Made by a program: the position numbers
Part shown: one piece after another, positions 1-47,700 of the stretch
Position numbering within the stretch: position 1 is the stretch's first letter
How the letters are laid out: every line of letters starts with the position of its first letter
Assembly: GCA_030265395.1 (NCBI GenBank)
Contig: JARFYF010000064.1
Span: 11,316,722-11,380,721 of the forward strand
DNA: 64,000 nt
From: Rhina ancylostomus
Lineage: Eukaryota
Reading direction: 5' to 3'

Positions 1-2702
1 ATAAGTATTCAAAGGACATGTCTTTCTCATTGCATCAATCATGCAACAAGAGTCAGAATTAAGGCCTTCAATGGGCACCATTCTGAGACACTGTAGAACA
101 AAAGCATGACTGTAAATCATTCCACAAGAAATAAGCAACAGACAAATCCACTTTTAACTGCTTTAAACTGCCTTGAAATAAAAAAAACAACAAACTATCC
201 CTGTGAACAGAAGTTCTACAATCCTTGTTATCAAAGCAACCAGACATGCCAGGGACTTGCAGTCTGGGGTTAATTTAGACTACTTTCTACATGTCCTGGT
301 AATGTGTCTGTGCAGGATCATGAGATGTGATACGATTCTTTTGGCTATCAACCAATCCATGATGTAGCTTTCTGAAGAGACTGGTGTTTTCAGTTTGCCT
401 ACAAGAACTGAGTTGAGCCTCAAATAGCTCATTTTCTGAATAATGGGAGCACTGTTCTAATAGATAGAACACTCAGTCACAATAGATACAAACATTTAGA
501 AGTTCTGGTAACACTTTTACCTATATCACTTTAGTCGAAACCTTGCAATAAATATGCTTTGTGAAAACTGAGTAAAAATATTACCAGTAACAATAAATGA
601 GAAGGTTTCCAATAATAATTAGTTAAATAAAAAGGGAAAAAATTAAATATTGTTGCAAGCTTGGTATTGCTATCTTGTTAACAACCCTAAGAACTCTTTG
701 CAGAATTTGTAATTGTAGTATAGAGACCAGTTCTCATACAGCCTCAAAGTTGCTTCAGTTCTAAGCACCCAGTTATAATCTCAATGCAGCATTTGGTTTA
801 ATTCCTCATCAGCTAATGATGAAGTGTAAAGATTATGTGAAGCTGTGGATTAGTAATAAACAGAACCTTTCTCAGCCAGATTGGAAAGAGACCTGAGCCT
901 TTTCTCTGCCACAGATGAATATGGCTGCCTGGATTTAGGTTAGATATGAATTTACGTTTTATTCAGCTCCCATAAGGGTGATTAAACAAATTAAAGTCAA
1001 TAGACATACAGCTACCAGGCAGGTTGCCTGCACCCAGGTTATTTTATACTCTGGTTTAACAAGCTGCAGATGTGAAATTAGCAAAAATGGGTAGGGTAGG
1101 AAGATAATAGTATAGGTTGTTAGACCNNNNNNNNNNCAATACCCAACATCAGGGCTGTATTTTTCTACTTTGGATTGTAAATGGAATGTTGATAAGTTAT
1201 AACTCTGAAAAAATAGTCATTACTTTCCATGGTGTACTGTGGAAAACAGAATACCTTATCCTCAAGTATCCCAATCTAATGATAAAATATGCACGAACAT
1301 GTATTCCAATGTAAATATTTGACCAGAGATCTGCCCCAGGAAAGCAATGAGTCATCAGAGGGTCATCTTCCAGAAACCACAACAACTACGGATGTTTTCT
1401 ACTGGATTACACAGGGAATAAATATATTCAATTTAATTGTTTTAGAGAAATTGAAAATCAGCAGGCGCACAAAGAGGTTTTACTTGCAATCTTGATGAAA
1501 TGTGCAGCAGATTCTGTTTAATGTTTCGGTATATGGGCAACAATGTTAAGTGGCTGAGTTGTGTGGAGATCCCTATTGTGGACATGATAAACAGTGGGAG
1601 GCTAAAGTCCAAAGCTAACCAGTGTTAAGGGCTTCAGCCTGATTTTTTAAAAATAATTTGAGAGTTAGCCAGCAGTTTCCGTAGCTTACAATTGAAAATA
1701 GTCAGTGTGAAAACCAGTAAATTTCCTCACTAAAACTGGCATCTCAATACCAAAAATGAGCTGGACTGAATTATTGAGAAATTTAACCAGGATAACTTTA
1801 AATCAAGGATGGAATGAAATACAATTAATTAGATCCTTGAACTGTTAAAAATGAAACATGAAAAGTATAACCAGATTTTAGAACTTTAACTCACACCCCC
1901 ACCCACCTTGGTAGACTGAGGAAATCTCCTATAAAACCTGAATATGAGTGCTGTTTTATACCCAGAATGATTATGAAACCAGACCTTTAAAGACAGAGTA
2001 CTTACTGTGAGTGCCGAATCTCCACGTTGACCCTAGAAAATGGAAGAGTAATCAGATTCGCAAAGTCAATACTTCATTTATATTGTACCTCTACAGCACT
2101 GAAGAAGTTACAAAATGTTACGAAGTAATACAGAAATGGGCCATTCAGCTCAATTGATTGACACTGGTAGTTTTGCTCCATAGATACTAGAGTGAAGTTT
2201 CATCGTCTTCTAATCTCAAACTTTAACCTTTTTTCAACACTATCCACTATATACCACTTAACGTCATGAGTCACTATATAAAAACACTTGTATGATCAGT
2301 AGTGAAAGTACAGAAACAGGCCCTTCAGCCCACTGAGTCTCTGCCAACCATCACCACACACTTACACCAGTTCTGTCAGTGCCTCTCGCAGAGGTCTGCG
2401 CCAATACCATTATTTTTAATGATAGGATCCATCAGAGTGATGATAGACTCAGATGGTCCTTGCCTGGCTACACTGGGTCTGGGTAGATGATACCCATATT
2501 TGGGTAGATGGAAAATGGGTTTAATGTGTCAAATTACAAAAAAAATTAAATTTAACAGATGCAAATCAGAATAAATGTTGAATCATTACTAAATGTAAAA
2601 TGTATCAATTATCAAAAATTGTTAAGTTTTCAAATTAGATATGCAGGAACTTCACCTACCCCATCTGGAAATATTGACATTGAGCCGAACATGAGACCAC
2701 AA

Positions 2703-2744
<42 letters not shown>

Positions 2745-44700: not shown

Positions 44701-47700
44701 TTTTTCTCCTGGTGGCCCTAGAGAGAAACAAGGAGTATTAGTAGAATTGTTAACAAATGGAGGCCATGAATTTATCTGTGTATAGCTACAGCACAACTTT
44801 CTTAAGGTGACTATAAGAATGGAAAGTGGAGTCAAAATTTAAATAATGGAGTTTTGATTAGGAATCCAACAGCTTTAAAGCTCTTCTTGTTCATCACTTA
44901 ACATGAAGGAATACACTTTAACACTGATGTATCTCAAAGCTTACAAGTCCAATAGTTTGTTATAACAAGTTTGTATTTTACATATTACTGTCTTTCAGGT
45001 TTCCAAATACAATGAATCATTGTGCTTGATGACCTTGGGCTTTCCTGTATTATTGATTAGCTGGCCCAGTATCAAGATGCTGATTTAATCTCAGACAGAT
45101 AATATTTCATGACTTTTGCTCTAATAAATCATCGAAGCAAAAGAAGGAGTCAACATTTCCAAACTTTCTTCACTTTTTAAAACCCACATCCATCTATATG
45201 TTGCATATAAAATGTTATCTCCCCAAGCACAGAAGAACAGTTACAAGGGGAATATCTTGCAGCCTTTCACATGAAAACATTTAAAACATGAAACAGAGTC
45301 CTCTAAACATTTTAATGTACTTACTTTAGTACAGACTATCCTCTAAAACAAATTGCCTGCACTATAATAAAAATCTCTGATTATACTGAATGCTATTTCA
45401 GCTCCTGAATCTCTCAGCCACATATCACCAATACATGGATTGCGTAATGGTATACCATTCAGAGTAAAACTTCAGCATTGCTAAATTTAAGGTGATAAAT
45501 AGAGCTCTGTCTTGCAAAAGTGGACTGTTTATTTATTCTACAGGTTTCTATTATTCCTACCAAATAAATTACTGATCAAAGCATGAAGAAGTAAGGTTAA
45601 TAAAAGCTTCCTTTAAACTAACTGTGAGCAATTTTAATGTGGTCGTTTCTGGTCATGGCTTAAGCATAAATTGCATGTTCAGTGAACTGTATCTTGGCTA
45701 CATAATGAACAGTTCATTCATGGTTTGCAGGGTGCATAACAGTTCACTCACTCCGGACTTACGCCTGGAATGTAACAATTGATATACTGATCTACCCTAT
45801 TTCTAAAGAAGGAAAGGTGATTTCAGAAGGCAAAATTGGAGGGTAATTTTCACAAGATGTTTCAAGTTATTCCATCATCATTAAATGGAATCTGAGAAAC
45901 TGAAAATACCATGATCTTGAGAAACAGAAATTCAATTTCACCTTGAAATTTTGGGCTAAACTACTCTGAATTGTACATAAATGGTCCGTCCACTGGATCT
46001 AAATATCCACAATACTAAATAGTGAATTAATAACTTGTAAGATATCCCACACATTTCAGTTAGGTATTTAGGTCTAAGCTGATAGATCCAACAGAATTTT
46101 TTTCCAACAGGACAGATTAATTTTCCACTCAATAGTTAGGAAATCCTGCTTTGGTTTCAGGATGGTTGAACTATCACTAATAGGTCATTTTGGTGGGTTC
46201 CCTCTGTGCATGTGATCCTCCCCATCACATGTTCCTCTACGTCTGCTCAGCTTAATGCACAGCGGCACAATGAAAGTCTAGCCCATTGTGATGAAAATAA
46301 AGAGTTCTACGTGCTCTGAAAAGGAAAAATATTGCCAAACACTTTCATCAACAGCTAAATTCTCTATTGGGTGGTGGTGAGTGGTTGTGGTGGGATGGGG
46401 TCGGAGCAGACTAAGCATGTGGCATTGGATTGGAAATTTTTTCCATTGGCTTCCAGTTTTACTCCTGGTGTCCTATTAAGGGGGGGCTGGGGGGTGGGTG
46501 GCGAGATTATCCAACCTATCAGATCAGTAACACAGGTCACAATCAGAAATTTAGAAGTTTACTTAGGAACACGAGAAGCGAAGTCAGAAATGGACACACA
46601 CACATAAAAAAACAAACACCAAAAACCTACAAAAAATTCACAGCTTGTCCCCAACCACAAGTATTCAAAACCTTATACATGAAACAATCAAACTCATCCA
46701 GAAATATCTGATCTCAAACACATGTTCAAACCATTACGCATAAACCATCCAAGCCTACTACACACAAAATATCAAAGGCCTCTAGTCAATAATATTAAAC
46801 ATCCATATACAAAATATCAGAGGCTCATATGCACTCCAGTCCTTTCCTTTGTGCACTGAGTACTTTCATCTTTCATTCTACACTGCGTAAACCATGTGAA
46901 AACAAGGGAGTTTCAGATACAACTCTTTAAACATTTTACACCTGTAGTTTGAAGAAAAGCCTGAATCTCATGAAAGTTCTGATGAAGTGTAATCAACCTA
47001 GAATTTAAACTCTGTTTCTCTCTCCACAGATACTGCCTGACTCGCTGAATATCTCCAGCATTTTCTGTTTCGGGTTTTCACCAGCTGTAGTTTGCTTCTG
47101 GGAAGCCTGAATCTTGATAGAACAAATCAAAACTGTTCCCTAGATTAAACCTACCAATAAGAAGCAACATATTCAAGTCCTACAGGCATAGAATTTGAGG
47201 AACTATTCTTAAACTGGTCTTAATCAGTTTTGTGTACAACCATCTCGATAAGACAGGGACAATTAATAGCTTAAAGCAGCCCAAATTAAATGTGTGTGTG
47301 TGTGTGTGTGTGTGCCAGTTAGTCTATGGGCATGTGTTGAATATTCAAACCATGTATTGGTAGATGGGAAACACCTGCCCAGATGCCATACAGTGCTTTG
47401 TTCAATTAAGTTTAGACCTCTGCATTACTGGTTTAGTGATGTGACAGTTGCACCACTTCATCTACCAAGTTATTTTCCTCCTGAAAGTATTTCTGTGCTG
47501 GGATGTGGTGCCATCTCATATGGCTCACCACTGTTTGCAAGAAGCTGAATGGACAGAGTCGACATGCTTTGCATCAGAGTTGGACTGAACAATAACAAAT
47601 GTGTACTTTCTCCCCAGCAGGAAAAATGGATGGATCAATGGATGGGAACCAACACAGCACTGAACAGATAATGAACCTGAGATCCACCTGGTCTGTGTNN

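What the first reader, a model, noticed from the sequence alone, without database searches (positions are those of the whole stretch)
2006..44717. MACIT collagen with a mosaic exon set: ancestral architecture or a fourth paralog
Seen: a 13-exon COL1 domain. Recalled: the 45-nt basic exon, GRDG(F/Y)P and GLPGPKGEK are COL23/COL25-type, and human COL13A1 lacks the 45-nt exon. Six consecutive exons (36, 27, 51, 36, 27, 27 nt) match COL13A1 in size and sequence. Inference: either a chondrichthyan ortholog keeps the full ancestral exon set that was differentially lost in mammals, or this is a fourth 2R-derived MACIT ohnolog lost in tetrapods.
[Added by the scan's program, not by the reader: the finding's places include an assembly gap (unread letters, written N; its length is only estimated) at 19153 to 19252, 30201 to 30300, 35879 to 35978. 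Whether the letters on both sides are continuous or in frame is not known: test that first.]
Basis: partly seen in the sequence, partly recalled or inferred. Interest (0 to 1): 0.7.

Follow-up and report, generated by a model that had tools for sequence, protein, structure and literature searches.

The report
Membrane collagen gene, first collagenous domain
This stretch holds thirteen small exons that encode the first collagen rod of a membrane-anchored collagen, most likely the collagen XIII gene of a non-mammalian vertebrate, so it is an ordinary gene with a slightly richer exon set than the one recalled for mammals.

Summary
On the minus strand, 13 colinear exons (45, 8, 27, 36, 27, 51, 36 and six of 27 nt) run from 44717 to 2006. 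All have AG/GT borders and consistent phases, and together they encode 128 Gly-X-Y-type codons followed by a non-collagenous start. Chance does not explain them: a strict exon pattern gives 9 hits on the minus strand, 0 on the plus strand and 0 in 100 shuffles.

The 45-nt basic exon enters and leaves in phase 1. An 8-nt microexon (41282-41275) restores phase 0. The three N runs in the finding all lie in introns between phase-0 exons, and the flanks of one of them overlap.

The gene is most likely the collagen XIII (COL13A1) orthologue of a non-mammalian jawed vertebrate, with a longer COL1 domain. That naming rests on recalled sequences and on indirect points from the literature. No vertebrate protein database was open, and I left out the joined-CDS search. 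A fourth 2R paralogue is not excluded but is unlikely: Tu et al. 2015 found exactly three MACITs in elephant shark. Taxon, orthology and loss of the exon in mammals all stayed untested. The finding is ordinary and of modest interest.

The parts
44673..44717 (-). 45-nt exon, phase 1 in and phase 1 out. It encodes (G)PPGEKGRHGRRGVP(G), the basic start of COL1.
   Evidence: The acceptor is tctctctag and the donor is gtatgt, with 80% pyrimidine upstream. All three frames are open, but only this one carries glycine at every third codon.
41275..41282 (-). 8-nt microexon GGCCTGCT. It completes the split glycine codon, adds P-A, and moves the phase from 1 to 0.
   Evidence: The acceptor is ttcttgtgttcacag and the donor is gtaagt, with 85% pyrimidine upstream. 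Under the strict pattern it is the only independent hit on the minus strand.
40898..40924 (-). 27-nt exon, GAPGRDGFP, phase 0-0
40191..40226 (-). 36-nt exon, GNKGSMGLPGRR, phase 0-0
34264..34290 (-). 27-nt exon, GLKGEPGEE, phase 0-0
23036..23086 (-). 51-nt exon, GAPGDPGISIIGPRGPP, phase 0-0. It holds the one Gly-X-Y break of the domain (G-I-S-I-I-G).
12150..12185 (-). 36-nt exon, GQPGARGFPGYP, phase 0-0
9655..9681 (-). 27-nt exon, GPIGLDGKS, phase 0-0
8112..8138 (-). 27-nt exon, GKAGPKGDM. First of four related 27-nt exons.
7326..7352 (-). 27-nt exon, GLPGPKGEK. Second of the four related exons.
6331..6357 (-). 27-nt exon, GDSGHKGEK. Third of the four related exons.
3480..3506 (-). 27-nt exon, GLHGPKGDK. 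Fourth of the four related exons.
2006..2032 (-). 27-nt exon, GQRGDSALT. It marks the end of COL1 and the first residues of the next non-collagenous stretch.

Best explanation
The window holds part of a collagen gene on the minus strand: the exons for COL1, the membrane-proximal collagenous domain of a MACIT-type transmembrane collagen. It is most likely the collagen XIII alpha-1 (COL13A1) orthologue of a non-mammalian jawed vertebrate.

Shown:
- Thirteen small exons spread over 42.7 kb encode 128 codons of Gly-X-Y with a single G-x-x-x-x-G break, followed by the start of a non-collagenous segment.
- The domain opens with a 45-nt exon that enters and leaves in phase 1 and carries a basic cluster.
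- An 8-nt microexon then resets the phase to 0.
- Every later exon starts with a whole glycine codon and ends with a whole codon.

Inferred:
- The 45-nt exon can be skipped without breaking the frame or the glycine register, because it is phase 1-1. Each phase-0 exon can be skipped in the same way. This is the architecture behind the complex alternative splicing reported for COL13A1 and COL25A1.
- The basic cluster probably binds heparin-like polyanions, as the positively charged COL1 cluster of collagen XXV does.
- The repeated K-G-D/E triplets near the C-terminal end of the domain probably stabilise the helix. This last point rests on established knowledge of collagen peptides, not on a test here.
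- The four related 27-nt exons arose by old tandem exon duplication.
- Compared with the mammalian gene as I recall it, this gene has one extra 45-nt exon and one extra 27-nt exon. The simplest reading is that the basic exon is ancestral to all three MACIT paralogues and was lost from mammalian COL13A1.
For: - Exon anatomy, splice sites and phase chain.
- Chance test: 9 hits on the minus strand, 0 on the plus strand, 0 in 100 shuffles.
- Microexon. In the relaxed scan of the 3.7-kb interval, 12 candidates go from phase 1 to phase 0, and 4 of them are 8 nt long. Only 41282 combines 85% pyrimidine with a GTAAGT donor. The strict pattern gives 4 minus-strand hits, 3 of which are just the ends of model exons, and 1 plus-strand hit.
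- The phase-1 entry matches human COL25A1. Its exon 3 is r.300_367 and ends on the first base of codon 123, and COL1 is residues 123-162.
- COL1 length here is 128 codons, against about 40 in human collagen XXV.
- Alternative splicing of COL1 exons is reported for COL13A1, where exons 3, 5 and 6 are spliced out in variant 21, and for COL25A1.
- Collagen XXV binds heparin and amyloid beta. The title of Osada et al. 2005, seen in reference lists, places the site in a positively charged cluster of COL1.
- Elephant shark has three MACITs that are orthologues of XIII, XXIII and XXV. XXIII and XXV are sister genes, and the fourth paralogue is inferred lost early.
- The four 27-nt exons share 18-22 of 27 nt.
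- From recall only, with no call behind it: the peptides of the 51-, 36-, 27- and 27-nt exons are nearly the same as those of mammalian collagen XIII.
Against: - No sequence comparison with any reference COL13A1, COL23A1 or COL25A1 was possible, so the gene name rests on memory and indirect points.
- The defining MACIT parts were not seen in the window: transmembrane segment, furin site, C-x-C before COL1, COL2, COL3 and the C-terminal motif. Upstream scans gave 0 C-x-C exon ends and one weak furin-like candidate. No NC2 exon was recognised downstream.
- The Atlas search with the ORF around the 51-nt exon returned only generic chordate collagens (CO9A3, CO4A2), with a low recognition value.
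- All three frames of the 45-nt exon are open, and the upstream exon that would fix its phase was not found.
- Two N runs (19153-19252 and 30201-30300) could hide small exons.
- There is no RNA evidence for any exon.
Confidence: 0.78

Rival explanations
1. The gene is a fourth MACIT paralogue. It could be the sister of collagen XIII left from the second round of vertebrate genome duplication, or a later lineage-specific duplicate of COL13A1, kept in this lineage and absent from tetrapods.
For: - Tu et al. 2015 infer that collagen XIII once had a sister gene that was lost. Such a sister could share XIII-type exons and still keep the basic exon.
- The exon set here is larger than the one I recall for mammals: one more 45-nt exon and one more 27-nt exon (the comparison is from recall).
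Against: - Only three MACITs were found in elephant shark and in every other jawed vertebrate surveyed, in a dataset of 49 sequences.
- No paper reporting a fourth MACIT turned up in searches.
- Extra cassette exons are explained more simply by exon loss or alternative splicing in mammals and by tandem exon duplication.
Confidence: 0.07
2. The gene is the orthologue of COL23A1 or COL25A1, not of COL13A1.
For: - The phase-1 entry into COL1 is documented here only for human COL25A1.
Against: - COL1 is 128 codons here, against residues 123-162 in human collagen XXV.
- By recall, the 51-nt exon with its break and the following 36-, 27- and 27-nt exons are collagen XIII-type.
Confidence: 0.06
3. 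The gene is a non-MACIT non-fibrillar collagen, such as a FACIT or another short-exon collagen. On this reading the resemblance to collagen XIII is a false memory.
For: - The Atlas search returned CO9A3 and CO4A2 clusters, not collagen XIII.
- No transmembrane or furin-site exon was found in the window.
Against: - The Atlas query was 32 residues, 15 of them intron-encoded, with a recognition value below the useful range. It cannot tell collagen types apart.
- The split-glycine entry at the start of the domain matches a MACIT gene.
Confidence: 0.04

Closest known systems
COL13A1 (collagen XIII alpha-1), a MACIT
   Same: - A long COL1 domain built of very small exons that are multiples of 9 nt (27 and 36 nt), with a 51-nt exon among them.
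- COL1 exons that are alternatively spliced cassettes in human.
- By recall only: near-identical peptides in four consecutive exons, and a very small exon near the start of COL1. [quoted passage not shown]
   Different: By recall only: the mammalian gene has no 45-nt basic exon and one fewer 27-nt exon, and its COL1 is about 104 residues at most, against 128 here. None of this was checked against a reference.
COL25A1 (collagen XXV, CLAC-P), a MACIT
   Same: - The first glycine codon of COL1 is split after its first base between two exons.
- A positively charged cluster lies in COL1 (title of Osada et al. 2005).
- In-frame cassette exons are alternatively spliced.
   Different: Human COL1 is only residues 123-162. 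The long series of exons after the basic one is absent there.
COL23A1 (collagen XXIII), a MACIT
   Same: It is the sister gene of COL25A1.
   Different: No data from any call. The comparison is recalled only.

Membership tests
MACIT collagens (XIII, XXIII, XXV), criteria of Tu et al. 2015 | Type II transmembrane topology (N-terminal cytoplasmic and transmembrane segment) | tested here: inconclusive
   No such exon was recognised upstream at 44718-64000. The gene probably runs on beyond the window, and N runs at 47699-48013, 49061-49160 and 51098-51103 lie in that stretch.
MACIT collagens (XIII, XXIII, XXV), criteria of Tu et al. 2015 | [quoted passage not shown] | tested here: inconclusive
   One collagenous domain of 128 codons, with one internal break, ends in a non-collagenous start. 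COL2 and COL3 lie outside the window.
MACIT collagens (XIII, XXIII, XXV), criteria of Tu et al. 2015 | Conserved C-terminal motif with two cysteines | not testable with these tools
   The 3' end of the gene is not in the window.
MACIT collagens (XIII, XXIII, XXV) | Juxtamembrane furin site in NC1, just before COL1 | tested here: inconclusive
   There is one weak candidate exon ending at 60132 with R-N-K-R and one Cys, but it has poor acceptors and no C-x-C. It is the only such hit on either strand of the window.
MACIT collagens (XIII, XXIII, XXV) | First glycine codon of COL1 split in phase 1 between exons (documented for human COL25A1) | tested here: met
   The 45-nt exon starts with the last two bases of a glycine codon. 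Human COL25A1 exon 3 ends at c.367, the first base of codon 123, which is the first residue of COL1.
COL13A1 orthologues | Sequence groups with reference collagen XIII rather than XXIII or XXV | not testable with these tools
Recall only.
COL13A1 orthologues | Synteny with the COL13A1 neighbourhood (ADAMTS14, DDX50) | not testable with these tools
   The window holds no other gene. Of the 8 ORFs tested against Pfam (out of the 45 ORFs of 100 aa or more listed), only LINE fragments matched a family.
COL13A1 orthologues | COL1 much longer than that of collagen XXV | tested here: met
   128 codons against residues 123-162.
Fourth 2R MACIT ohnologue | A locus present in addition to true XIII, XXIII and XXV orthologues in the same genome | not testable with these tools
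   Only this window is available.

The most novel reading that the evidence does not exclude
The locus is a surviving fourth MACIT ohnologue, the lost sister of collagen XIII predicted by Tu et al. 2015. It would be kept in this lineage alongside true COL13A1, COL23A1 and COL25A1 genes, and would preserve the ancestral union of exons.
Probability: 0.06. Interest if true: 0.65.

Novelty: new member of a known kind. Interest (0 to 1): 0.28.

Why it matters
If the basic 45-nt exon really belongs to a collagen XIII orthologue, then the positively charged start of COL1 was already present in the single pre-duplication MACIT gene. In collagen XXV that cluster is the heparin and amyloid-beta binding site. 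Mammalian collagen XIII would then have lost it secondarily. This is a small but concrete point on how the three transmembrane collagens diverged in ligand binding.

The locus is also a clean example of a phase-resetting 8-nt microexon, which gene predictors often miss.

Beyond that it is a normal gene that automatic annotation of the source genome has probably already called.

Tried and rejected
- **Upstream NC1 exon.** I listed 952 acceptor/donor pairs ending in phase 1 on a G. None of them (0) ended in C-x-C. One had a furin-like R-x-K/R-R plus a Cys, ending at 60132. It is the only such hit in the window on either strand, but its acceptors are poor and it lacks the expected motifs. I did not adopt it.
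- **Downstream NC2 exon in 1-2005.** Nothing recognisable.
- **Rfam and tRNA scans.** 0 matches each.
- **Text search of papers for six exon peptides.** 1 paper for 1 of the 6 motifs, and that hit was a generic collagen MEME motif.
- **Atlas search with the single stop-to-stop ORF around the 51-nt exon.** Generic collagens only.
- **Exon sizes of COL13A1.** The searches found no paper that gives them, and PMC282217 is not held.
- **Recent duplication of exons with their introns.** Similarity stops within about 15 nt of the exon borders, so any duplication is old.
- **Reading the 45-nt exon in phase 0 and splicing it straight to 40924.** The frame is open, but this reading ignores the perfect glycine periodicity of the other frame and the well-placed microexon. 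Rejected.
- **False Gly-X-Y hits carrying the peptide GLKGLF.** Three such hits occur at 2338-2312 (-), 20602-20577 (-) and 36021-36069 (+). I take them for repeat copies and not exons, by recall; no alignment tied them together.
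Full report
**Setting.** The window is 39.6% G+C with a CpG observed/expected ratio of 0.23. It carries eight N runs. Rfam and tRNA scans found nothing. I do not take it for human, for three reasons:
- it is a scaffold with many 100-N joins;
- it holds LINE fragments with long open frames;
- by recall, the exon peptides differ from the human ones.

No tool here can name the species.

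**The observation.** A six-frame scan for Gly-X-Y runs put nearly all good hits on the minus strand. Reading each hit with its flanks showed AG acceptors and GT donors directly at the borders. The full model has 13 exons: 44717-44673 (45 nt), 41282-41275 (8), 40924-40898 (27), 40226-40191 (36), 34290-34264 (27), 23086-23036 (51), 12185-12150 (36), 9681-9655, 8138-8112, 7352-7326, 6357-6331, 3506-3480 and 2032-2006 (27 each). Upstream pyrimidine content is 60-85%, and introns are 350 to 11,177 nt.

The strict pattern AG-(GGN N6)x3 or more-GTR gives 9 hits on the minus strand, none on the plus strand, and none in 100 dinucleotide-preserving shuffles. By construction this pattern cannot see the other four exons: two have split codons, one has an internal break, and one ends in non-collagen.

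**Phases.** The 45-nt exon begins with the last two bases of a glycine codon and ends with the first base of another. All exons from 40924 onward start and end on whole codons. So a phase 1-to-0 exon must lie between 44673 and 40924.

A scan of that interval listed 12 candidates, 4 of them 8 nt long. Only 41282-41275 has a strong acceptor (85% pyrimidine, cacag) and a consensus donor (gtaagt). Under a strict pattern (AG, G, seven bases, GTRAGT) the window has 4 minus-strand hits, 3 of which are only the 3' ends of exons already in the model, and 1 plus-strand hit. With this microexon the glycine register runs unbroken from the 45-nt exon into the 27-nt exon.

The 45-nt exon is open in all three frames. 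I read it in the Gly-X-Y frame because that frame has glycine at every third codon and because the microexon fits it. The upstream exon that would prove the phase was not found.

**Assembly gaps (tested first, as asked).** The three N runs in the finding each lie in an intron between two phase-0 exons, so the frame does not depend on them. Each contig between N runs carries at least one exon on the same strand.
- For 35879-35978, the 69 nt to the left are 97.1% identical to the 69 nt to the right. The contig ends overlap, and probably nothing is missing.
- The same holds for 49061-49160, outside the finding (48 nt, 97.9%).
- 19153-19252 and 30201-30300 show no flank overlap and could hide a small in-frame exon.

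I filled nothing.

**What the exons encode.** Taken one by one, they add up to 392 nt. With the carried-over base this is 131 codons: 128 in Gly-X-Y register with one G-x-x-x-x-G break inside the 51-nt exon, then three non-collagenous residues. The 45-nt exon holds 4 K/R and 1 H against one acidic residue.

Four consecutive 27-nt exons (8138, 7352, 6357, 3506) share 18-22 of 27 nt and the form G-x-x-G-P/H-K-G-D/E-K/M. Similarity ends about 15 nt beyond the borders, so they are an old tandem exon family.

That step is left out, and with it any alignment-based naming of the protein.

**Surroundings.**
- *Upstream (44718-64000).* I looked for the exon that should carry the furin site and the cysteines before COL1. 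There were 952 acceptor/donor pairs and 0 ends with C-x-C. One furin-like candidate ends at 60132, the only such hit on either strand of the window. Its acceptors are weak and it lacks other expected motifs, so I do not include it.
- *Downstream (1-2005).* No convincing exon.
- *Other ORFs.* I tested 8 of the 45 ORFs of 100 aa or more against Pfam. Two matched LINE parts: RVT_1 at E = 3.1e-8 and a weak endonuclease match at 0.0045. The other six matched nothing.

**Comparison with what is known.**

*Tu et al. 2015* (PMC4678570; I read the abstract, sections 5-8 and 13, and passages). They define MACITs by type II topology, interrupted collagenous ectodomain and a conserved C-terminal motif. 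They found exactly three MACITs in elephant shark, orthologues of XIII, XXIII and XXV. They show that XXIII and XXV are sisters, and they infer that the sister of XIII was lost early. They give furin sites RRRR107 (XIII), RTAR110 (XXIII) and RIAR112 (XXV).

*Human COL25A1.* Skipping of exon 3 removes r.300_367, so exon 3 ends on the first base of codon 123 (PMC12669723, passages). COL1 is residues 123-162 (PMC2807601, passages). The first glycine codon of COL1 is therefore split in phase 1, exactly as in the window. The domain is only about 40 residues, against 128 here.

*Human COL13A1.*
- c.523-1delG hits an acceptor before a glycine codon that starts an exon. This is the phase-0, glycine-first pattern seen in the window (PMC4678414, passages).
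[quoted passage not shown] This fits a very small exon at this place in both genes, but the paper gives no sizes.

*Ligand binding.* Collagen XXV binds heparin and amyloid beta (PMC5583603, passages). The title of Osada et al. 2005, seen only in reference lists, puts the site in a positively charged cluster of COL1.

*Exon sizes.* I found no paper that gives COL13A1 exon sizes, and none on MACIT paralogue evolution beyond Tu et al.. PMC282217 is not held. Supplements were closed. The additional files of Tu et al. and the supplementary figures of PMC12669723 may hold alignments or exon maps that bear on this.

**What rests on recall only.** Three things are my memory of the reference proteins and of papers by Tikka, Kvist, Juvonen and Pihlajaniemi, which I could not open:
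- that the 51-, 36-, 27- and 27-nt exons are almost identical in peptide to mammalian collagen XIII;
- that mammalian COL1 is at most about 104 residues and lacks a 45-nt basic exon;
- that an 8-bp exon is described for the collagen XIII gene.

They are leads, not tests. An Atlas search with the one stop-to-stop ORF around the 51-nt exon (32 residues, 15 of them intronic) gave generic chordate collagens with a low recognition value.

**Verdict.** The best explanation, at about 0.78, is the COL1 region of the collagen XIII orthologue of a non-mammalian jawed vertebrate. Its exon set is a superset of the one recalled for mammals, and its basic first exon is probably ancestral to all MACITs. The rivals are:
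- a fourth or duplicate MACIT paralogue (about 0.07);
- a COL23A1 or COL25A1 orthologue (about 0.06);
- a non-MACIT collagen (about 0.04).

The decisive tests are a tree, synteny, the locus count and junction reads. All are routine with the source genome and its annotation. I rate it a new member of a known kind, of modest interest.

Noticed in passing
35810-35878 and 35979-36047; 49013-49060 and 49161-49208: The sequence on the two sides of two 100-N runs overlaps (69 nt at 97.1% and 48 nt at 97.9%). These 'gaps' are probably overlapping contig ends rather than missing sequence.
   Followed up: partly
55216-57298 (-) and 57926-58438 (-): These are LINE fragments with long open frames. Reverse transcriptase (RVT_1) matches at E = 3.1e-8 at 55664-56158, and an endonuclease matches weakly at E = 0.0045 at 56807-57298. 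A separate fragment upstream (57926-58438) gave no Pfam hit; calling it a LINE C-terminal end is by recall only. They lie in the intron upstream of the 45-nt exon.
   Followed up: partly
2338-2312 (-), 20602-20577 (-), 36021-36069 (+): The short Gly-X-Y-like peptide GLKGLF recurs here and gave false collagen hits. I take these for copies of an interspersed repeat, perhaps LINE 3' ends, by recall; no alignment tied the three together.
   Followed up: no
8138-8112, 7352-7326, 6357-6331, 3506-3480 (-): Four neighbouring 27-nt exons share 18-22 of 27 nt, and similarity extends about 15 nt into the acceptor side. This is an old tandem exon-duplication family inside COL1.
   Followed up: yes
44717-44673 (-): All three reading frames of the 45-nt exon are open. 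The frame one base off the collagen frame reads a run of basic residues (RRKRK). This is probably a by-product of the AGA/AAG-rich codons.
   Followed up: partly
60248-60132 (-): This open stretch ends in R-N-K-R, one Cys and a G|GT donor in the phase needed to join the 45-nt exon. It is the only such hit on either strand of the window, but its acceptors are weak and it has no C-x-C.
   Followed up: partly
17383-17673 and 52692-52982; 29642-30022 and 54813-55200 (inverted): These are diverged interspersed repeat copies (74% over 300 nt and 67% over 418 nt) within the introns.
   Followed up: no
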